DNA of 5,373 bases, from positions 1-5,373 of IMG/VR virus record IMGVR_UViG_2778261389_000002, one strand, 5' to 3'. The notes beneath the pieces were generated by a model. The model did no database searches. It was not told the DNA's origin and saw nothing but the letters and a program-made list of their open reading frames with translations. This DNA comes from a virus. Its lineage: Duplodnaviria; Heunggongvirae; Uroviricota; Caudoviricetes. Both the position numbers and the translations under genes were made by a program. Positions within the stretch are counted from its first letter, which is position 1. Each line of letters starts with the position of its first letter. This document shows positions 1 through 5,373 of the stretch, piece by piece.

Positions 1-60
1 GTGGCGGCCTCAGTCCGGAACAATTTGAAAACAAGAACCTCGCTTAGGCCTGTGTCCATA

Positions 61-630
61 TTACGTGGGTAGGATCACATATGGTGAATATTCGTTGTCT
101 TGTTTAGTAACGGTGTCTGTCATTGTCCTGATGTAGTCTGCGCTTACCACGTTGTTGTATTCTGTTGCGAAGCAGCATAACAACGTCAGAACATGCTCTG
201 TCGTTATTTCGATCCAGTTGATGTTGAAAAACTCATCGCCTTTTTTATCGTGTTCGGAATCGAAGATGCTTTGGTGGAGGATGTATTTGCCGGATTCCTT
301 GCGCGGTAACTTGATCGCTTTCTGGCGTTCCAACTCCTTGTAAATCTGCATTGCTTCAATTAGTACCGGCCTGCCGTTCATGAAGGGATCGCGCAACCTT
401 ACACGCTGGCCAACTCGACCGGTAATAAAGCTGTTTTCCTCTTCCACCAGCACGATAAAACCCTTTTCCTCTTTTTCTCGCAATTCGCGCAGCAGCTGGA
501 GTTCCATATCGCGGCGGCGTTCAGGGTAGCTGGTCCGCTCAGCCATTATCAGCTCGTTGTTGATCCATGCAGCAGTCATTGACGCCGGTTTACCGACGCT
601 CATCGAAACAACGCATATTTTCTTATCCAT
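61..630 (-). CDS. hypothetical protein, 189 aa, gene downstream of ref
   Basis: Part of track ORF 61..777(-). I place the start at ATG 628-630 (MDKKICVV...), preceded by SD AGGGGG (rc of 635-640) at 4-nt spacing; stop TAA at 61-63. The longer upstream extension in the track would translate through a terminator hairpin and the RBS, so it is rejected. No family recognised from the sequence; by P1 gene order it occupies the slot after ref. Confidence 0.55.
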   Translation of the reverse strand: MDKKICVVSMSVGKPASMTAAWINNELIMAERTSYPERRRDMELQLLRELREKEEKGFIVLVEEENSFITGRVGQRVRLRDPFMNGRPVLIEAMQIYKELERQKAIKLPRKESGKYILHQSIFDSEHDKKGDEFFNINWIEITTEHVLTLLCCFATEYNNVVSADYIRTMTDTVTKQDNEYSPYVILPT

Positions 631-642
631 AGCGCCCCCTAT

Positions 643-669
643 AAAAAAGAAAAGCCACCAGCGGCGGCT
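643..669 (-). terminator. intrinsic-terminator-like hairpin in front of the 189-aa ORF
   Basis: Minus strand reads AGCCGCC-GCT-GGTGGCT (7-bp stem with one G-U pair) followed by TTTTCTTTTTT. The T-tract ends about 12 nt upstream of the ATG at 630. Confidence 0.55.
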
Positions 670-819
670 TAGCAATACAACTGAAGGTAGCGCCCGGTAC
701 TCAGACTGTGCCGTCCATGGAATATTTGAAAAGGGATCCATCCGTACCGGGCATGTGATGATTCTGACTGAAGTCACTTGTCAGTTGTCAATTATTTCAG
801 ATTAAAAATAATATATTTA

Positions 820-1376
820 TTAGTGCATGATGTTTGCCATCTCATAGGCGTCAGCCAGCAATTCCATCTCTGACTTGTTCAGCAAGGTGAATTCTTTCTT
901 GCCTCCAACCACACCATCGGCATGAACGGGGACCAGCCAGGGGTATTTTTCTCTTACTTCAGCCGGTGCTGCATGCTAGTGGTGCCATCTACAAAGGGGC
1001 AATTGCTTTTTGTGACAACCCGGCGCGGTACGACCGGAGATATGGTGCAGAGACACCTCTTCAGATATTACTCCATGCATGTAGCAGGCAATGCAGGGGA
1101 GAGTGCCAAGAGCATTGGCGATGGTCCGTTCCTCCGCCGTCGGTGTTCGCCCCTTCAAGCCACGAGATTTTATTTTTACCGCACTTTTCCGCGTTTTGCT
1201 GGCTGGTGGGCGCTCTTTCTGTTTAGCGATACGGCGGTCGATAGAATCCCGCATTTTCTGATATTGCGATTCTCGCCAGGCGGGGTCAGCCAACTTTTCC
1301 CGTTGCCGATCGCTCGTTCTCTGGCTGCCTTCTGCCACTCGCGGCGCTGTTCAAGTTTTTGTTCGATTGTTTTCAT
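820..1376 (-). pseudogene. ref: ref (P1 recombination enhancement function, HNH endonuclease), disrupted by a frameshift and an in-frame TAG
   Basis: Best start ATG 1374-1376 (MKTIEQKLEQRREW...) lies in the frame of track ORF 1176..1481, which stops at 1176. The HNH core (CIAC...LHHI...CRWHH) is in a different frame (track ORF 976..1338) that overlaps it by 163 nt. That frame hits TAG at 976-978 and then stays open for 51 more codons (HAAPAEVREKYPWLVPVHADGVV...ANIMH) to TAA 820-822. ATG to TAA spans about 185 codons, matching the ~186-aa size I recall for P1 Ref. Position about 2 kb from loxP and the C1-operator promoter upstream fit ref. Confidence 0.6.
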
Positions 1377-1381
1377 ATGGC

Positions 1382-1407
1382 AAAAAAAAGGCGGCCTAAT
1401 GGCCGCC
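1382..1407 (-). terminator. intrinsic-terminator-like hairpin between the ref promoter and the ref ATG
   Basis: Minus strand reads GGCGGCC-ATTA-GGCCGCC (perfect 7-bp GC stem) followed by T8. The T-tract ends 5 nt before the ref ATG. It may terminate cre/cra read-through or act as a leader attenuator. Confidence 0.6.
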
Positions 1408-1465
1408 AATGATGTCAAGGAGTGAAGTAATGGCAACGTCTTCGTAGTTGACAAAAACTGCGGCT

Positions 1466-1491
1466 CAATTATAGCAATCAATTAGAGCAAT
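1466..1491 (-). promoter_or_regulatory. ref promoter (-10 TATAAT) overlapped by a C1 operator (Op2-like)
   Basis: Minus strand has a perfect TATAAT (rc of 1468-1473). Immediately upstream, ATTGCTCTAATTGATTG (rc of 1475-1491) matches the C1 operator consensus at 14/17 with the 11-bp core perfect. Ref is known to be C1-repressed in P1. Confidence 0.65.
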
Positions 1492-1517
1492 TAAAGTTAT
1501 TTATCGCGAATCACATT

Positions 1518-1546
1518 TTTTCATTTCAGTACCTGTGTGCTATACT
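1518..1546 (+). promoter_or_regulatory. candidate + strand promoter with extended -10
   Basis: TGcTATACT at 1538-1546 (TG plus TATACT) with a weak -35 TTTTCA at 1518-1523 and 17-nt spacer. It points at the terminator at 1593-1622. Confidence 0.35.
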
Positions 1547-1552
1547 CCTTCT

Positions 1553-1622
1553 TGATTGATTGGATGCGGAATACAAACCCGCTCTTTTGTGCAGCCTGGC
1601 TCCTTGCCAGGCTTTTTTTATT
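1553..1622 (+). ncRNA. candidate small RNA of about 70 nt (promoter to intrinsic terminator)
   Basis: Predicted start about 1553 after the extended -10. A strong + strand terminator follows: AGCCTGGC-TCCTT-GCCAGGCT (8-bp stem, 1593-1613) then TTTTTTTATTT. No plausible ORF or RBS inside. It lies between the cra-position ORF and the ref promoter. Confidence 0.3.
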
Positions 1623-1929
1623 TCAGCATGGAAGCTGTTAACGCTTTGGACCTTGCTGAACTGATTGAAAGGGCTTTGTCAACGTGCCCCAAAAATTCGC
1701 CAAACTCGGCCATCACTTTGGCAAAACCGCGCCGTGCTTCTTTCTCGGTGGCATTCATCACGAAATGTTCAGCACTACGCATACTTTTGACAGGGAACGC
1801 AACGGATATTGAGTCAATATCAGGCATTCTATCGCTCAGCTTTACAGTGACAATGACGGCTGGCGACTGAATATTAGTGCTTACAGACAGCACTACATAT
1901 TTTCCGTCGATGTTGAAATCCTTTCTCAC
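1618..1929 (-). CDS. hypothetical protein, 103 aa, in the position of P1 cra
   Basis: Track ORF 1618..1929(-) with GTG start and a weak GGTGA SD; the stop lies inside the T-tract of the 1593-1622 hairpin. It sits between cre and ref where P1 carries cra, but I cannot confirm the sequence identity from memory. The antisense + ORF 1556..1870 is less plausible because it would read through the terminator. Confidence 0.4.
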   Translation of the reverse strand: MRKDFNIDGKYVVLSVSTNIQSPAVIVTVKLSDRMPDIDSISVAFPVKSMRSAEHFVMNATEKEARRGFAKVMAEFGEFLGHVDKALSISSARSKALTASMLK

Positions 1930-1945
1930 ATGTCACCATAAATAT

Positions 1946-1962
1946 CAAAGAATTAGAGCAAT
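1946..1962 (-). promoter_or_regulatory. C1 operator-like site between cre and the cra-position ORF
   Basis: rc of 1946-1962 is ATTGCTCTAATTCTTTG: the 11-bp core ATTGCTCTAAT is perfect, 13/17 overall against the consensus. Confidence 0.45.
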
Positions 1963-1979
1963 AATTTACGCGTTAATGG

Positions 1980-3011
1980 CTAATCGCCATCTTCCAGCAG
2001 GCGCACCATTGCCCCTGTTTCACTATCCAGGTTACGGATATAGTTCATGACAATATTTACGTTGGTCCAGCCACCAGCTTGCATGATCTCCGGTAGTGAA
2101 ACTCCGGCGCGGGCCATATCTCGTGCGGCTCCGACACGGGCACTGTGTCCAGACCAGGCCAGGTACCTCTGGCCAGAGTCATCCTTAGCCCCGTAAATCA
2201 ATCGGTGAGTTGCTTCAAAAATCCCTTCCAGGGCGCGAGTTGATAGCTGGCTGGTGGCAGATGGCGCGGCAACACCATTTTTTCTGACACGGCAAAACAA
2301 GTAGTTATTCGGATCATCAGCCACACCAGAGACAGAAATCCATCGCTCAACCAGTTTAGTTACCCCCAGACTAAGTGCCTTCTCTACACCAGCGGTGCTA
2401 ACCAGCGTTTTCGTTCTGCCAATATGGATTAACATTCTCCCACCGTCAGTACGTGAGATATCTTTAACTCTGATCCTAGAAATTTCGGCTATACGTAACA
2501 GGGTGTTATAAGCAATCCCCAGAAATGCCAGATTACGTATATCCTGGCAGCGATCGCTATTTTCCATGAGTGAACGAACCTGGTCGAAATCAGTGCGTTC
2601 GAACGCCAGCGCCTGTTTTGCACGCTCACCGGCATCAACGTTTTCTTTTCGGATCCGTCGGATGACCAGTGAAACAGCATTGCTGTCACTTGGTCGTGGC
2701 AGCCCGGACCGACGATGAAGCATATTTAGCTGGCCCAAATGTTGCTGGATAGTTTTCACTGCCAGACCGCGCGCCTGAAGATATAGAAGATAATCGCGAA
2801 CATCTTCAGGTTCTGCGGGAAACCATTTCCGGTTATTCAACTTGCACCATGCCGCCCATGACCGGCAAACGGACAGAAGCATTTTCCAGGTATGCTCAGA
2901 AAACGCCTGGCGATCCCTGAACATATCCATCAGGTTCTTGCGAACCTCATCACTCGTTGCATCGACCGGCAATGCAGGCAAATTTTGGTGTACGGTCAGT
3001 AAATTGGACAT
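1980..3011 (-). CDS. cre: Cre site-specific tyrosine recombinase
   Basis: 343-aa ORF (MSNLLTVHQNLPALPVDATSDEVRKNLMDMFRDRQAFSEH...MVRLLEDGD) recognised as P1 Cre over its full length. Catalytic-region motifs are present (GHSARVGAARD, GGW, NYI). loxP lies 419 bp upstream. Confidence 0.97.
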   Translation of the reverse strand: MSNLLTVHQNLPALPVDATSDEVRKNLMDMFRDRQAFSEHTWKMLLSVCRSWAAWCKLNNRKWFPAEPEDVRDYLLYLQARGLAVKTIQQHLGQLNMLHRRSGLPRPSDSNAVSLVIRRIRKENVDAGERAKQALAFERTDFDQVRSLMENSDRCQDIRNLAFLGIAYNTLLRIAEISRIRVKDISRTDGGRMLIHIGRTKTLVSTAGVEKALSLGVTKLVERWISVSGVADDPNNYLFCRVRKNGVAAPSATSQLSTRALEGIFEATHRLIYGAKDDSGQRYLAWSGHSARVGAARDMARAGVSLPEIMQAGGWTNVNIVMNYIRNLDSETGAMVRLLEDGD

Positions 3012-3018
3012 TTGACAC

Positions 3019-3240
3019 TCAGATAATGGTTTTAAGTAAAGTGTACAGGATCGGCTCTGCCTTTACCTGTTTATGGTTCTCGTCATAGAAACGCCAACGA
3101 CCGCGACTGCGTTCTATCTTTTCTTCACCGCGCGATAATGACAGTTGACAACTATCACGATCAAACCCTTTCGCCCGCCAGTAACCACGATTTTTCTCAA
3201 GCTCAAGATGAGTGGACACTTTAGCAGCTGAATATCCCAT
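3019..3240 (-). CDS. small ORF (73 aa) directly upstream of cre
   Basis: ATG at 3238-3240 is preceded by SD GAGGTGA at about 4-nt spacing; the stop at 3019-3021 is 7 nt before the cre ATG. The product is basic with no recognisable domain. It could be a real leader ORF or a chance ORF in the cre regulatory region. Confidence 0.35.
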   Translation of the reverse strand: MGYSAAKVSTHLELEKNRGYWRAKGFDRDSCQLSLSRGEEKIERSRGRWRFYDENHKQVKAEPILYTLLKTII

Positions 3241-3337
3241 TTTTCACCTCTGATTGATTGGTGGTGCTAAGTGCGCTACGCGAAATCTGGAGCACTAACA
3301 CTGCCAACATTTCGCAGATTTTACGTAGCGCAACCTT

Positions 3338-3410
3338 GATCAAATGATCAAGTGATCACTATTTGACCTGATAAGGTATTGAGCTGTATGGATTTACAGG
3401 TAAATTGATC
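3338..3410. promoter_or_regulatory. Dam (GATC) site cluster in the cre regulatory region
   Basis: GATC at 3338, 3346, 3354 and 3407; the first three sit in reiterated TGATCA hexamers within 20 bp. P1 cre promoters are reported to be methylation-sensitive. Confidence 0.5.
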
Positions 3411-3429
3411 ATGTTCAATAACCCTTAAG

Positions 3430-3463
3430 ATAACTTCGTATAATGTATGCTATACGAAGTTAT
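3430..3463 (+). other. loxP: loxP site (Cre recombination target)
   Basis: Exact 34-bp ATAACTTCGTATA-ATGTATGC-TATACGAAGTTAT: two 13-bp inverted arms around an 8-bp asymmetric spacer. Confidence 0.97.
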
Positions 3464-3506
3464 TAGGTCTGAAGAGGAGTTTACGTCCAGCTGCGCATAA
3501 AAATCA

Positions 3507-3523
3507 AGAATTATTAGAGCAAT
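3507..3523 (-). promoter_or_regulatory. C1 operator (Op99 family), minus orientation
   Basis: rc of 3507-3523 is ATTGCTCTAATAATTCT, 15/17 against the consensus ATTGCTCTAATAAATTT. Confidence 0.7.
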
Positions 3524-3583
3524 AAATTTTGAGAGAAAAATCCCACTCCACCAGCCAAAAACTGGATTGTTTTTCATAGTTGT

Positions 3584-3610
3584 TTGACAATTGCTCTAAT
3601 AAATTATAGT
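3584..3610 (+). promoter_or_regulatory. immC promoter (P99-like) with overlapping C1 operator
   Basis: -35 TTGACA at 3584-3589 is followed by ATTGCTCTAATAAATTA (3590-3606, 16/17 to consensus) and -10 TATAGT at 3605-3610. It is oriented toward coi and c1, consistent with autoregulation. Confidence 0.75.
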
Positions 3611-3844
3611 TTTGCCGCCGTTACGTAATACGACTTTGGATTCACTATTTAATGTGTCTTCAGCGTTGTAGAGCGGCTCAGAAGGAAATGAGCAAACAGG
3701 GAAACCTTATACAACGGCATTACAGCTATGCATTGCTCATCTTACACACAGCGCAATGTTGTTAGATTACCCCAGCATGGATCATGGGTGAAACAGTAGG
3801 TCAGAGCTTCAGGCTCTGTGTTGTCAATACAGTGAGGCATAATT

Positions 3845-4054
3845 ATGGCTTTCATTCAACCAACCATCGGCGACGTTAGACATTGCTCTAACGCTTTATC
3901 TGTAGACCCTGCCGAAACCGACGCAGCCCGCGCCATTGCTGAACACTACTCAAAGATATCCAATCAGGAGTACCGCATCACCCAAGACGACCTGGATGAC
4001 CTCACTGACACAATCGAATATCTCATGGCAACTAACCAGTTAGACTCACAATAA
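3845..4054 (+). CDS. coi: Coi, C1 inactivator
   Basis: 69-aa ORF (MAFIQPTIGDVRHCSNALSV...) immediately upstream of c1 in the same orientation, with a GAGG SD 7 nt upstream. Size and position match P1 coi. A weak operator-like ATTGCTCTAA core sits inside the gene at 3882-3891. Confidence 0.85.
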   Translation: MAFIQPTIGDVRHCSNALSVDPAETDAARAIAEHYSKISNQEYRITQDDLDDLTDTIEYLMATNQLDSQ

Positions 4055-4097
4055 ATGCACTAATAAATCTATTATTTTCGTTTGATCCCTCTATAAT
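4054..4097 (+). promoter_or_regulatory. operator-like site at the coi stop plus candidate -10 for c1
   Basis: AATGCACTAATAAATCT (4054-4070) matches the C1 operator consensus at 14/17 with two core mismatches. TATAAT at 4092-4097 has no good -35. Confidence 0.35.
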
Positions 4098-4164
4098 ATA
4101 GGTCAGTAATGACCGGTTTTCTCAGCCGGGCGTTATTGACCATGTCAATTCTGGAGGAGGATCA

Positions 4165-5016
4165 ATGATAAATTATGTCTACGGCGAACAACTGTACCAG
4201 GAGTTCGTCAGCTTCAGGGATCTCTTTCTAAAAAAAGCTGTTGCACGCGCCCAACACGTTGATACAGCCAGCGACGGTCGTCCTGTACGCCCGGTTGTCG
4301 TTCTACCGTTCAAAGAAACTGACAGCATTCAGGCTGAAATTGATAAATGGACTTTAATGGCGCGGGAACTGGAACAGTACCCAGACCTCAATATCCCAAA
4401 GACTATTTTATATCCAGTGCCTAACATCCTTCGCGGTGTGCGTAAGGTTACAACTTATCAGACAGAAGCTGTGAACAGCGTCAACATGACCGCTGGCCGC
4501 ATTATTCATCTGATTGATAAGGACATTCGCATCCAAAAAAGCGCGGAGATCAATGAGCACAGTGCGAAATACATAGAGAACCTGGAAGCAACAAAAGAGC
4601 TAATGAAGCAGTACCCGGAGGATGAAAAATTCCGTATGCGCGTACACGGCTTTAGCGAAACAATGCTGCGCGTCCACTACATTTCCAGTAGCCCTAACTA
4701 CAATGATGGTAAATCAGTTAGTTACCATGTGCCACTGTGTGGCGTGTTTATCTGCGATGAAACTCTCCGTGATGGAATTATCATCAACGGTGAATTCGAA
4801 AAAGCAAAATTTAGCCTTTATGACTCCATAGAACCGATCATCTGCGACCGCTGGCCGCAAGCAAAAATATATCGCCTGGCAGATATTGAAAATGTAAAAA
4901 AACAAATTGCCATCACTCGCGAAGAGAAAAAGGTTAAGTCAGCCGCATCAGTTACGCGCAGCCGTAAAACCAAGAAGGGGCAGCCAGTAAACGACAACCC
5001 CGAAAGCGCGCAATAA
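4165..5016 (+). CDS. c1: C1 repressor of lytic functions
   Basis: 283-aa ORF (MINYVYGEQLYQEFVSFRDLFLKK...NDNPESAQ) recognised as P1 C1. Strong SD GGAGGAGG at 4153-4160 sits 4 nt before the ATG. It lies downstream of coi and the operator-controlled promoter. Confidence 0.95.
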   Translation: MINYVYGEQLYQEFVSFRDLFLKKAVARAQHVDTASDGRPVRPVVVLPFKETDSIQAEIDKWTLMARELEQYPDLNIPKTILYPVPNILRGVRKVTTYQTEAVNSVNMTAGRIIHLIDKDIRIQKSAEINEHSAKYIENLEATKELMKQYPEDEKFRMRVHGFSETMLRVHYISSSPNYNDGKSVSYHVPLCGVFICDETLRDGIIINGEFEKAKFSLYDSIEPIICDRWPQAKIYRLADIENVKKQIAITREEKKVKSAASVTRSRKTKKGQPVNDNPESAQ

Positions 5017-5020
5017 ATTA

Positions 5021-5053
5021 TGCCCGGCATCAACCGGGCATTCTTCCATTATT
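5021..5053. terminator. bidirectional intrinsic terminator between convergent c1 and the KilAC-like ORF
   Basis: TGCCCGG-CATCAA-CCGGGCA (7-bp stem) is followed by TTCTTCCATTATT on the + strand and by TAATTTATT on the - strand. Confidence 0.55.
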
Positions 5054-5312
5054 CAGCCGCCACCGGTTTTAACAAGCCAGCATCGAGCAGTTTACGCGTC
5101 AACCACTGCTGGCCTTTACCCGTTAATTGAGGCGTCAACCGTATCTGGTAGCCATCTTCATCATCCAGCACCACTTCTTTCACCGTGAAATACCCCGCGT
5201 TGATGTACTGCTGGAACGGTACATTTTTACGGCCTCCGGACGCTATCAGAATGCCGTTCTCCCGTAACCAGGCAAACAGCGCATTTTGTTTAAGTCGGGG
5301 TTTGAGGGCCAA
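5049..5312 (-). CDS. KilAC/ANT-like domain ORF (87 aa), probably a 5'-truncated remnant
   Basis: Track ORF 5049..5312(-). The motif pattern (NALFAWLRENGIL...NVPFQQYINAGYF...TPQLTGKGQQWLTRKLL) resembles the C-terminal KilAC/ANT domain of phage antirepressors, judged by eye. It has no ATG (only TTG at 5310-5312) and no SD, and all three minus frames are closed by stops in 5313-5373. Confidence 0.4.
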   Translation of the reverse strand: MALKPRLKQNALFAWLRENGILIASGGRKNVPFQQYINAGYFTVKEVVLDDEDGYQIRLTPQLTGKGQQWLTRKLLDAGLLKPVAAE

Positions 5313-5373
5313 TGGAACGAAAACGTACGCTAAGAAGTTAATTCATTGTTTAAATTGAAATTTAGTTCTCTCA

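What the first reader, a model, noticed from the sequence alone, without database searches (positions are those of the whole stretch)
1466..4070. Multiple C1-operator copies, including non-canonical positions
Besides the expected operators at the immC promoter (3590-3606) and the ref promoter (1475-1491), operator-like 17-mers occur in inverted orientation near loxP (3507-3523), between cre and the cra-position ORF (1946-1962), overlapping the coi stop (4054-4070) and, as a core only, inside coi (3882-3891). Core matches are exact at 1946 and 3507. This suggests C1 may also gate transcription leaving cre and entering c1, or form repressor loops bracketing loxP.
Basis: partly seen in the sequence, partly recalled or inferred. 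Interest (0 to 1): 0.4.

Follow-up and report, generated by a model that had tools for sequence, protein, structure and literature searches.

The report
Phage P1 C1 repressor operator sites
The repeated 17-base motifs are binding sites for the C1 repressor of a P1-like phage-plasmid; five of the six are already annotated in phage P1, and the sixth, just upstream of the c8 gene, is a conserved site that the P1 and P7 records do not annotate because those two phages carry a one-base variant there.

Summary
The window is the mat-ref-c8-cre-cra-loxP-immC-c1 segment of an E. coli IncY P1-like phage-plasmid. It is reversed relative to P1, and its C1 is 98.9% identical to P1 C1.

Five are base-for-base identical to operators annotated in P1 (AF234172):
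- 1475-1491 = Oref (Op2a)
- 3507-3523 = Oc1e (Op99e)
- 3590-3606 = Oc1d (Op99d)
- 3882-3898 = Oc1c (Op99c)
- 4054-4070 = Oc1a (Op99a)

So most of the "non-canonical" positions are canonical.

Only 1946-1962 (ATTGCTCTAATTCTTTG) is unannotated. P1 and P7 have ATTGCTATAATTATTTG at that position. The exact operator core is present in 44 of 50 close relatives. An operator-like site also sits between cre and c8, on the c8 strand, in 5 of 5 divergent lineages whose spacer is otherwise unalignable. In three of those lineages, checked with the promoter scan, the site overlaps or abuts a promoter-like site.

This site is probably a genuine C1 operator for c8, but binding was not tested. Nothing supports repressor loops bracketing loxP. 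Overall the finding is known biology with one modest new detail.

The parts
813..829 (-). Omat (former Op2/Op2b), CATGCACTAATAAATAT. A C1 operator overlapping the ref stop codon, upstream of Pmat/LPmat.
   Evidence: Identical to P1 2628-2644, which is annotated as a C1 operator. PWM score 20.1. 25 of 29 relatives are identical.
1475..1491 (-). Oref (former Op1/Op2a), ATTGCTCTAATTGATTG. A C1 operator filling the spacer of promoter P2ref; the -10 TATAAT is at 1468-1473.
   Evidence: Identical to P1 1962-1978, annotated 'controls transcription of ref'. PWM score 18.7.
1618..1929 (-). c8 (103 aa, GTG start). Putative lysogeny-establishment gene.
   Evidence: ORF list. 91% identical to P1 C8. P1 annotation.
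1946..1962 (-). Candidate operator 'Oc8' (my label), ATTGCTCTAATTCTTTG. Exact 11-nt core, 4 mismatches to the consensus, same strand as c8, 17 nt upstream of the c8 start and 18 nt downstream of the cre stop. Not annotated in P1 or P7.
   Evidence: Core exact. PWM score 17.0, p about 8e-7 per position. P1 and P7 have ATTGCTATAATTATTTG here. 44 of 50 close relatives keep the operator core. 5 of 5 divergent lineages have an operator-like site at this position.
1980..3011 (-). cre recombinase gene.
   Evidence: ORF list. 99.1% identical to P1 Cre.
3019..3240 (-). cra (73 aa), the true cre-associated ORF, upstream of cre.
3379..3406 (+). P2coi promoter with a LexA box (3382-3401). It reads rightward through loxP toward Oc1e, Oc1d and coi.
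   Evidence: Mapped from the P1 annotation; one base differs in the LexA box and -35.
3430..3463 (.). loxP, the 34-bp Cre recombination site.
   Evidence: Identical to both P1 lox halves.
3478..3507 (-). P4cre promoter (TTGATT ... TAAACT), reading leftward through loxP into cra and cre.
   Evidence: Mapped from the P1 annotation; hexamers identical.
3507..3523 (-). Oc1e (former Op99e), ATTGCTCTAATAATTCT. A C1 operator abutting the -35 of P4cre.
   Evidence: Identical to P1 94724-94740, annotated 'may control expression of cra and cre'. PWM score 25.1. Equivalent sites are present in 5 divergent lineages.
3584..3613 (+). P1coi (former P99d) promoter for imcA-imcB-coi-c1.
   Evidence: Mapped from the P1 annotation; -35 TTGACA identical.
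3590..3606 (+). Oc1d (former Op99d), ATTGCTCTAATAAATTA. A C1 operator occupying the P1coi spacer. It lies 83 bp from Oc1e in divergent orientation.
   Evidence: Identical to P1 94641-94657. PWM score 25.6. The 83-84 bp Oc1e-Oc1d spacing is kept in 5 divergent lineages.
3845..4054 (+). coi, the C1 inactivator gene.
   Evidence: ORF list. 95.7% identical to P1 Coi.
3882..3898 (+). Oc1c (former Op99c), ATTGCTCTAACGCTTTA, inside coi. Only the 10-nt core matches.
   Evidence: Identical to P1 94349-94365, annotated as a C1 operator. Invariant in 35 of 35 close relatives. PWM score only 10.0, and the core is degraded in divergent lineages.
4054..4070 (+). Oc1a (former Op99a), AATGCACTAATAAATCT. Half of the bivalent operator Oc1ab over the -35 of Pc1; it starts on the last base of the coi stop codon.
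   Evidence: Identical to P1 94177-94193. PWM score 22.8. 35 of 35 relatives identical.
4065..4081 (-). Oc1b, ACGAAAATAATAGATTT. The weak inverted partner of Oc1a in the bivalent operator.
   Evidence: Identical to P1 94166-94182.
4068..4097 (+). Pc1 (former P99a), the autoregulated c1 promoter (TCTATT ... TATAAT).
   Evidence: Mapped from the P1 annotation; identical.
4165..5016 (+). c1, the repressor that recognises these sites.
   Evidence: 283-aa ORF. 98.9% identical to P1 C1.100. Pfam PF27008 Phage_P7_repressor_C1 on homologues.

Best explanation
The motifs are the C1 operators of a P1-type phage-plasmid. C1 (window 4165-5016) recognises asymmetric 17-bp sites with consensus ATTGCTCTAATAAATTT. 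Each site sits on or next to a sigma-70 promoter and is mostly oriented with the gene it controls.

What each known site does in this window:
- Oc1d fills the spacer of P1coi and shuts off imcAB-coi-c1 transcription.
- The bivalent Oc1a/Oc1b covers the -35 of Pc1, giving c1 autoregulation.
- Oc1c lies inside coi.
- Oc1e abuts the -35 of P4cre, which reads through loxP into cra and cre.
- Oref fills the spacer of P2ref.
- Omat precedes Pmat.

These placements are shown by sequence identity to the annotated P1 record. Repression by promoter occlusion at these sites is established P1 biology.

The seventh site, 1946-1962 between cre and c8, is inferred to be an additional C1 operator, which I call 'Oc8'. 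I propose it keeps c8, a putative lysogeny-establishment gene, off once C1 has accumulated. In divergent lineages it would do so by covering the -10 and start region of a c8 promoter. In the P1 lineage no promoter-like site was found next to it, so it more likely acts as a roadblock to transcripts coming out of cre or from the predicted Pc8 promoter. In P1 and P7 a single C-to-A change turns the operator core TGCTCTAAT into TGCTATAAT, a perfect extended -10. That change probably explains why no operator is annotated there.
For: Identity of the window:
- 95-97% identical to P1, P7, SJ46 and phi456.
- 100% identical to the E. coli IncY plasmid NZ_CP081715.1 over 78-5373.
- C1 is 98.9% identical to P1 C1.

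The known sites:
- Five reader sites, plus Oc1b and Omat, are base-identical to protein_bind features annotated 'phage repressor C1' in AF234172. The associated promoter hexamers are also identical.
- The motifs are strongly enriched.
- A matrix trained only on P1 operators outside this region recovers them. In the whole P1 genome it ranks 18 of the 20 annotated monovalent operators above every unannotated position.

Oc8:
- PWM score 17.0, close to the lowest scores among those 18 top-ranked annotated operators: Oref 18.7, Olpa 19.7, Orlf 19.7.
- It differs from Oref at only 2 of 17 positions.
- Its 4 mismatches to the consensus fall within the 0-5 range seen in 19 of the 20 annotated monovalent operators; Oc1b has 7.
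- 44 of 50 close relatives keep the exact 11-nt core. The 18 nt between the cre stop and the site occur in at least four unrelated versions.
- In five divergent lineages (C1 72-79% identical; in the three measured, L057-L059, Cre about 80% and C8 42-46%), an operator-like site lies between cre and c8 on the c8 strand: ATTGCTCTAATAATATT, ATTGCTCTAATAATTTA, ATTGTTCTAATAATTTT, ATTGTTCTAATATATAA and TATGTTCTAATATATAA. The rest of the spacer does not align.
- In L057 and L062 the site overlaps the -10 of a promoter-like ATGACA-17-TATTAT. In L059 it sits directly after TTGACG-17-AAGAAT.
- In P1, 16 of 20 annotated operators point the same way as the downstream gene, and Oc8 does too.
Against: - No binding data are available for any site in this element.
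- Oc8 is not annotated in P1 or P7.
- Its AT-rich half (TTCTTTG) matches the consensus poorly.
- The scan found no promoter-like site next to it in the window, so the mechanism in this lineage is unclear.
- P1 and P7, the phages studied experimentally, carry the variant core, so their biology cannot vouch for it.
- Oc1c is not significant by sequence alone. Its conservation could reflect coi coding constraint, because the core spans the Cys-Ser-Asn codons.
- The primary P1 literature could not be retrieved, so I cannot exclude that the cre-c8 site has been discussed in print.
Confidence: 0.85

Rival explanations
1. The 1946-1962 motif is not an operator. It is a promoter element or a chance AT-rich look-alike. 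The ancestral function would be a -10 or extended -10 for c8, as in P1 and P7 (TGCTATAAT), and the TCTAAT form merely resembles the C1 core.
For: - P1 and P7 have a perfect extended -10 at this position.
- The operator core and TGnTATAAT differ by one base.
- The same C-to-A switch is seen at Oref in 4 of 42 relatives.
- The site is unannotated in P1 and P7.
- The 3' half matches the consensus poorly.
Against: - 44 of 50 close relatives and 5 of 5 divergent lineages carry the operator form, not TATAAT.
- In three of those divergent lineages (L057, L062, L059) a separate -35/-10 pair lies upstream, and the site follows or overlaps its -10 rather than being the -10 itself.
- Chance expectation in the 52-nt spacer is 6e-5 to 3e-4.
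- In four divergent lineages the full 17-mer, not just the core, scores 15-24.5.
Confidence: 0.2
2. The operators flanking loxP (Oc1e on the right, the cre-c8 site on the left) pair through C1 to form a loop enclosing loxP, cra and cre, and so modulate Cre recombination or cre expression.
For: - Operators do exist on both sides of loxP.
- From my own recollection, C1-mediated looping has been reported in immC (Heinzel et al. 1994).
- The Oc1e-Oc1d pair keeps an 83-84 bp spacing, about 8 helical turns, in all lineages examined. This suggests that C1 molecules bound at neighbouring sites interact.
Against: - The conserved 83-84 bp pair lies wholly to one side of loxP.
- The nearest left-hand site is 1.49 kb from loxP and about 1.56 kb from Oc1e.
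- As I recall it, the reported loops involve the bivalent Oc1ab and sites upstream of c1, not loxP.
- Nothing in the sequence singles out loxP as a target. Simple promoter occlusion at P4cre explains Oc1e.
Confidence: 0.07
3. The coi-internal core (3882-3898, Op99c) is a by-product of coi coding sequence and has no regulatory role in this element.
For: - PWM score is only 10.0, with 0.3-1.4 such sites expected by chance per window.
- The core spans the Cys-Ser-Asn codons.
- In divergent lineages the Ser-Asn codons persist, but the ATTGC part becomes ATTAT and the score drops to 6-8.
Against: - It is annotated in P1 as operator Oc1c/Op99c, 'controls expression of c1'. I recall, but could not check, that this rests on experimental work.
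- It is invariant in 35 of 35 close relatives, while 10 of the 80 flanking positions vary.
Confidence: 0.25

Closest known systems
Bacteriophage P1 C1-controlled operators Oc1a-e (Op99a-e), Oref (Op2a) and Omat (Op2b), as annotated in GenBank AF234172 / NC_005856
   Same: Seven window sites have identical sequence, order, orientation and promoter context. The repressor is the same (98.9% identical).
   Different: The window also carries an operator-type core between cre and c8, where P1 has ATTGCTATAATTATTTG and no annotated operator. ref is a pseudogene here.
Phage P7 immC/cre region (AF503408, AY751747)
   Same: Same gene order. Op(ref) is annotated at the homologous position.
   Different: P7 shares the P1-type TATAAT variant at the cre-c8 site and has a different 18-nt spacer upstream of it.
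Divergent P1-like phage-plasmids of Salmonella, Klebsiella and metagenomes (loci L057, L058, L059, L062, L063; C1 72-79% identical)
   Same: Operator-like sites lie at the positions of Oc1e, Oc1d and Oc1a and at the cre-c8 position. The Oc1e-Oc1d spacing of 84 bp is kept.
   Different: Their cre-c8 site matches the consensus better in four of the five (scores 15-24.5; L059 scores 9.7). In L057, L062 and L059 it overlaps or abuts a recognisable promoter-like site. The Op99c core is degraded. Some lineages use a TGTTCTAAT variant of the core.
Mycobacteriophage L5 gp71 repressor 'stoperators' (own knowledge: Brown et al. 1997, EMBO J)
   Same: A monomer-type repressor recognises many asymmetric sites dispersed over the genome. 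Sites are mostly co-oriented with transcription, and some lie inside transcription units where they block elongation. This is a possible model for how the cre-c8 site could act in the P1 lineage.
   Different: The protein and motif are unrelated. A roadblock function has not been shown here for C1.

Membership tests
P1 C1-controlled operator | Asymmetric 17-bp match to ATTGCTCTAATAAATTT with a conserved 5' core (TGC.CTAAT) | tested here: met
   Mismatches to the consensus: 1 (3590), 2 (3507), 3 (1475, 4054), 4 (1946), 5 (3882). Of the 20 annotated P1 monovalent operators, 19 have 0-5 mismatches and Oc1b has 7.
P1 C1-controlled operator | Positional and sequence homology to an operator annotated in the P1 genome record | tested here: met
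   Met for 1475, 3507, 3590, 3882 and 4054, and for 813 and 4065. All are identical to AF234172 features. NOT met for 1946-1962: no feature is annotated at P1 1485-1501 or in P7.
P1 C1-controlled operator | Cognate c1 repressor gene present and intact | tested here: met
   283-aa ORF at 4165-5016, 280 of 283 residues identical to P1 C1.100.
P1 C1-controlled operator | Overlaps or abuts a sigma-70 promoter, or lies in a transcribed leader | tested here: inconclusive
   Met for Oc1d, Oc1ab, Oc1e, Oref and Omat through identical annotated promoter hexamers. For 1946-1962 the scan finds no promoter-like site in the window. Promoter-like sites do overlap or abut the homologous operator in L057, L062 and L059.
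P1 C1-controlled operator | Conservation in related genomes beyond the flanking sequence | tested here: met
   Within operators, 0-5 of 17 positions are polymorphic, against 10-32 of 80 flanking positions. The cre-c8 site is retained in 5 of 5 divergent lineages within an otherwise unalignable spacer. Among close relatives alone, Oc8 is no less variable than its flanks (0.021 against 0.021).
P1 C1-controlled operator | Physical binding by C1 (footprint or gel shift), enhanced by Lxc | not testable with these tools
   Needs biochemistry. For the P1-identical sites, binding is inferred from the P1 annotation and literature.
C1-mediated DNA loop in immC (own knowledge: Heinzel et al. 1994) | Bivalent operator Oc1ab plus distal monovalent operators upstream of c1 | tested here: met
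   Oc1a/Oc1b at 4054-4081, with Oc1c, Oc1d and Oc1e 172, 464 and 547 bp upstream. All are identical to P1.
C1-mediated DNA loop in immC (own knowledge: Heinzel et al. 1994) | Actual loop formation, and whether any loop encloses loxP | not testable with these tools
   No structural or 3C data. All immC operators lie on one side of loxP.

The most novel reading that the evidence does not exclude
Natural P1-like phage-plasmids carry an extra, previously unannotated C1 operator ('Oc8') immediately upstream of c8. This would place the putative lysogeny-establishment gene c8 under direct C1 control. The two laboratory references, P1 and P7, would be atypical: a single C-to-A change converts the operator core into a perfect extended -10 (TGCTATAAT), which may make c8 expression independent of C1. 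The same operator-to-promoter toggle recurs at Oref in some relatives.
Probability: 0.5. Interest if true: 0.4.

Novelty: already known. Interest (0 to 1): 0.25.

Why it matters
Most of this finding restates the P1 immunity circuitry mapped in the late 1980s and 1990s and annotated in the 2004 genome record. It therefore adds little.

The useful residue is the cre-c8 site. If C1 binds there, c8 joins the C1 regulon in most natural P1-like phage-plasmids, which are common carriers of resistance genes in Enterobacteriaceae. It would also mean the reference phages P1 and P7 misrepresent the family at this locus. That gives a simple, testable handle on the poorly understood c8 function. It also gives an example of a one-base switch between a repressor operator and a promoter -10 element.

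Tried and rejected
- Literature. Lobocka et al. 2004 (PMC523184 and by DOI), Osborne et al. 1989 and Windle et al. 1988 are not held. Full-text searches for Op99/Op2a/Oc1e names, C1 looping, and P1-like operators found nothing relevant beyond PMC8546580 (22 operators, consensus sequence) and PMC4713147 (C1 site at the ref promoter). One search failed on term length.\n- The genome-contig scan with a C1 alignment returned only 5 loci, of which one was divergent and lacked cre next to c1. Only the few true c8 loci were kept, after tblastn filtering.\n- Rfam search of the window gave only sub-threshold hits.\n- I rejected the idea that Op99c can be supported from sequence statistics alone.\n- I rejected treating within-P1-lineage conservation as proof for Oc8, because its variability equals that of its flanks there. 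The argument rests on the divergent lineages instead.\n- Two script calls failed on file layout.

Full report
**What the window is.** The 5373-bp window aligns at 95-97% identity with phage P1, P7, SJ46, phi456 and other Punavirus genomes. It is 100% identical over 78-5373 to E. coli IncY phage-plasmids such as NZ_CP081715.1. It is reversed relative to the P1 reference. The genes, left to right:
- mat (- strand, ends about 640)
- ref (- strand, disrupted)
- c8 (1618-1929, -)
- cre (1980-3011, -)
- cra (3019-3240, -)
- loxP (3430-3463)
- imcA/imcB
- coi (3845-4054, +)
- c1 (4165-5016, +)
- the 3' end of pacB (-)

C1 is 280/283 identical to P1 C1.100, Cre 340/343, Coi 66/69 and C8 94/103. P1 operator knowledge therefore transfers directly.

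**Checking the observation.** Searching for ATTGCTCTAATAAATTT with up to 3 mismatches finds exactly 1475-1491(-), 3507-3523(-), 3590-3606(+) and 4054-4070(+). That is 4 hits against 0.01 expected. The 10-nt core ATTGCTCTAA is exact at 1482, 1953 and 3514 on the - strand and at 3590 and 3882 on the + strand. Allowing one mismatch gives 6 hits against 0.41 expected.

I built a weight matrix from the 13 annotated P1 operators that lie outside the region homologous to the window. Window scores were 25.6, 25.1, 22.8, 20.1, 18.7, 17.0 and 10.0, with the next-best position at 7.0. Exact tail probabilities give at most 0.05 expected sites per window at a score of 17 or more. At a score of 10 or more, 0.3-1.4 are expected. 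All but the coi-internal core are individually far beyond chance.

**What the sites are.** The P1 record AF234172 carries 22 protein_bind features for "phage repressor C1": 20 monovalent sites plus two composite bivalent entries. This matches the "22 operators" quoted in PMC8546580. After extracting those sequences and mapping them through a window-P1 alignment, I get:

| Window | P1 feature | Notes |
|---|---|---|
| 1475-1491 | Oref (former Op1/Op2a) | |
| 3507-3523 | Oc1e (Op99e) | "may control expression of cra and cre" |
| 3590-3606 | Oc1d (Op99d) | between -35 TTGACA and -10 of P1coi/P99d |
| 3882-3898 | Oc1c (Op99c) | inside coi |
| 4054-4070 | Oc1a (Op99a) | half of bivalent Oc1ab over the -35 of Pc1 |

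All five are base-for-base identical to P1, and so are the annotated hexamers of Pc1, P1coi, P4cre and P1ref and the -10 of P2ref.

The "non-canonical positions" near loxP, at the coi stop and inside coi are therefore the canonical Op99e, Op99a and Op99c. PMC4713147 independently states that a C1 site occludes a ref promoter and that ref is induced like other C1-controlled genes.

**The one site that is not annotated.** Window 1946-1962 (- strand, ATTGCTCTAATTCTTTG) lies 18 nt after the cre stop and 17 nt before the c8 start. Neither P1 nor P7 annotates an operator there. At the homologous position both have ATTGCTATAATTATTTG. Position 7 is A instead of C, which creates TGCTATAAT, a perfect extended -10. 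C at position 7 is present in every annotated P1 operator except the weak Oc1b.

In a whole-genome P1 scan, this position (16.7) and one other site (17166-17182, score 17.1) are the best-scoring unannotated positions. They rank directly below 18 of the 20 annotated operators; only the weak Oc1c (10.0) and Oc1b score lower.

The window version scores 17.0 and has the exact 11-nt core. It differs from the accepted operator Oref at only 2 of 17 positions. Its 4 consensus mismatches fall within the 0-5 range of 19 of the 20 annotated monovalent operators.

**Conservation in close relatives.** I fetched 44 IMG/VR contigs with a cre-end pattern and added phage, plasmid and genome loci.
- Of 50 close relatives covering the site, 44 have the operator-type core: 38 ATTGCTCTAATTCTTTG, 4 ...TTCATTG and 2 ...TTATTTG.
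- Only 6 have the TATAAT form: P1, the two P7 records and three viral contigs.
- The 18 nt between the cre stop and the site occur in at least four unrelated versions, while the 17-mer and the c8 ribosome-binding region stay fixed.
- Within the closely related majority, however, the site is no less variable than its flanks (0.021 against 0.021). The close relatives alone prove little.

The known operators are each less variable than their flanks. Oc1a and Oc1c are invariant in 35 of 35, and Oc1d is identical in 36 of 37.

**Conservation in divergent lineages.** C1 homologues at 72-79% identity led to five loci with cre-c8 synteny: L057, L058, L059, L062 and L063. For L057-L059, Cre is about 80% and C8 only 42-46% identical to the window proteins, and the cre-c8 spacer is unalignable apart from one island.

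That island is an operator-like 17-mer on the c8 strand, about 20-27 nt before the c8 start:
- ATTGCTCTAATAATATT (score 24.5)
- ATTGCTCTAATAATTTA (23.9)
- ATTGTTCTAATAATTTT (21.0)
- ATTGTTCTAATATATAA (15.2)
- TATGTTCTAATATATAA (9.7)

The T-for-C change at position 5 also appears in other operator-like sites of the same lineages, so the site partly follows each lineage's version of the motif.

In L057 and L062 a promoter-like ATGACA-17-TATTAT overlaps the first two bases of the site. In L059 a TTGACG-17-AAGAAT ends two bases before it. That is the arrangement expected for a repressible promoter.

The same loci also keep equivalents of Oc1e, Oc1d and Oc1a. The divergently oriented Oc1e-Oc1d pair is always 84 bp apart, against 83 bp in the window. 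The Op99c equivalent keeps only the Ser-Asn codons (TCTAAC) and loses ATTGC. Its conservation in the P1 lineage may therefore owe something to coi coding constraint.

**Mechanism.**
- *Shown by identity to the annotated reference.* C1 sites sit on P1coi, Pc1, P4cre, P2ref and near Pmat. C1 therefore blocks transcription toward coi and c1 (including its own promoter), toward loxP-cra-cre, toward ref and toward mat.
- *Inferred.* The cre-c8 site is a further operator. In divergent lineages it would occlude a c8 promoter. In the P1 lineage the spacer is about 23 nt shorter and lacks the stretch that holds the -35 in the divergent lineages, and the scan finds no promoter next to the site. There it more likely obstructs read-through from cre or from the predicted Pc8 promoter inside cre (window 2022-2053). 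That would resemble the orientation-dependent "stoperators" of mycobacteriophage L5 (my own knowledge).
- *Orientation.* Its orientation matches c8, as 16 of 20 annotated P1 operators match their downstream gene.
- *Biological sense.* Repressing a lysogeny-establishment gene once C1 is present is sensible, but this is speculation.
- *P1 and P7.* The C-to-A change may have turned the operator into a C1-independent extended -10 promoter. The same switch occurs at Oref in 4 of 42 relatives.

**The looping idea.** All immC operators lie to the right of loxP. The nearest site to the left is 1.49 kb from the loxP centre. From my own recollection, the only C1 looping in the literature is Heinzel et al. 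1994, J Biol Chem, which I recall as connecting Op99a,b with upstream Op99 operators. I could not retrieve that paper to confirm it. The conserved 83-84 bp Oc1e-Oc1d spacing hints at interaction between neighbouring C1 molecules, but it does not enclose loxP. I give the loxP-bracketing loop a low probability.

**Comparison and novelty.** Five of the six sites (seven of eight counting Oc1b and Omat) are members of the P1 C1 operator set by every sequence criterion tested. This part is already known. The cre-c8 site meets the motif, orientation, cognate-repressor and cross-lineage conservation criteria. It fails "annotated in P1", and its promoter context in this lineage is inconclusive. If real, it would be a new member of a known kind. 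I could not read the primary P1 papers, so prior mention cannot be excluded.

**Verdict.** Overall the finding is ordinary, known biology (interest 0.25). Its one modestly interesting lead is a conserved candidate C1 operator upstream of c8 that the P1 and P7 references lack.

Noticed in passing
window 976-1376 (- strand): ref is a pseudogene here. It has a 4-bp deletion near codon 24 and a CAG-to-TAG nonsense change relative to P1 ref. The operators Oref and Omat that flank it are intact.
   Followed up: partly
window 5296-5373: Homology to P1 pacB stops at 5296. The sequence GGGGTTTGAGGGCCAATGGAACGAAAACGTACGCTAAG (5296-5333) looks like a Tn3-family 38-bp terminal inverted repeat (my own recollection of gamma-delta/Tn1000-type ends). 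In the matching plasmid an IS26 follows, so pacB is truncated and the element is probably packaging-defective.
   Followed up: partly
window 1-77: The first 77 bases are not P1-like. They match only phage phi467 in the phage collection, and the best plasmid hits start at base 78, so this is another insertion or rearrangement junction inside or next to mat.
   Followed up: no
window 1518-1620 (+ strand): A promoter-like site (TTTTCA-17-TATACT with an upstream TG) is followed by a strong terminator-like hairpin with a T-run at 1593-1613. This could give a 60-70 nt + strand transcript between Oref and the c8 3' end, antisense to the c8-ref intergenic region. The only Rfam hit is sub-threshold (SorX, 22.6 bits against a gathering score of 46.6).
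   Followed up: partly
P1 genome AF234172 17166-17182 (locus L003 13766-13782): ATTGCCCTAATGTATTT scores 17.1 with the operator matrix. It is the best unannotated operator-like site in P1 and lies about 70 nt inside the 5' end of darB, roughly 70 nt from the darB/prt divergent promoter region.
   Followed up: no
window 1462-1491 (- strand) and relatives: Oref is followed by a near-repeat, ATTGCTATAATTG, whose TATAAT is the -10 of P2ref. In 4 of 42 relatives Oref itself reads ATTGCTATAATTAATTG. The one-base switch between the operator core (TCTAAT) and a -10 (TATAAT) therefore recurs at two loci.
   Followed up: partly
window 3874-3893: The Op99c core lies within a 7-bp inverted repeat, CGTTAGA-cattgc-TCTAACG, which the scan flagged as terminator-like, inside coi.
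   Followed up: no
L058 1921-1937, L059 2908-2924, L062 1721-1737, L063 1770-1786: In divergent lineages a further operator-like motif, TTTG(T/C)TCTAAT(G/C)ATT.., sits inside a small (47-52 aa where called) hydrophobic ORF just downstream of c8. It may be a coding coincidence or another operator. This ORF is absent from the window.
   Followed up: no
window 3382-3401: The LexA box and the -35 of P2coi differ from P1 by one base (ACCTGTAAATCCATACAGCT against ...CAGTT).
   Followed up: no
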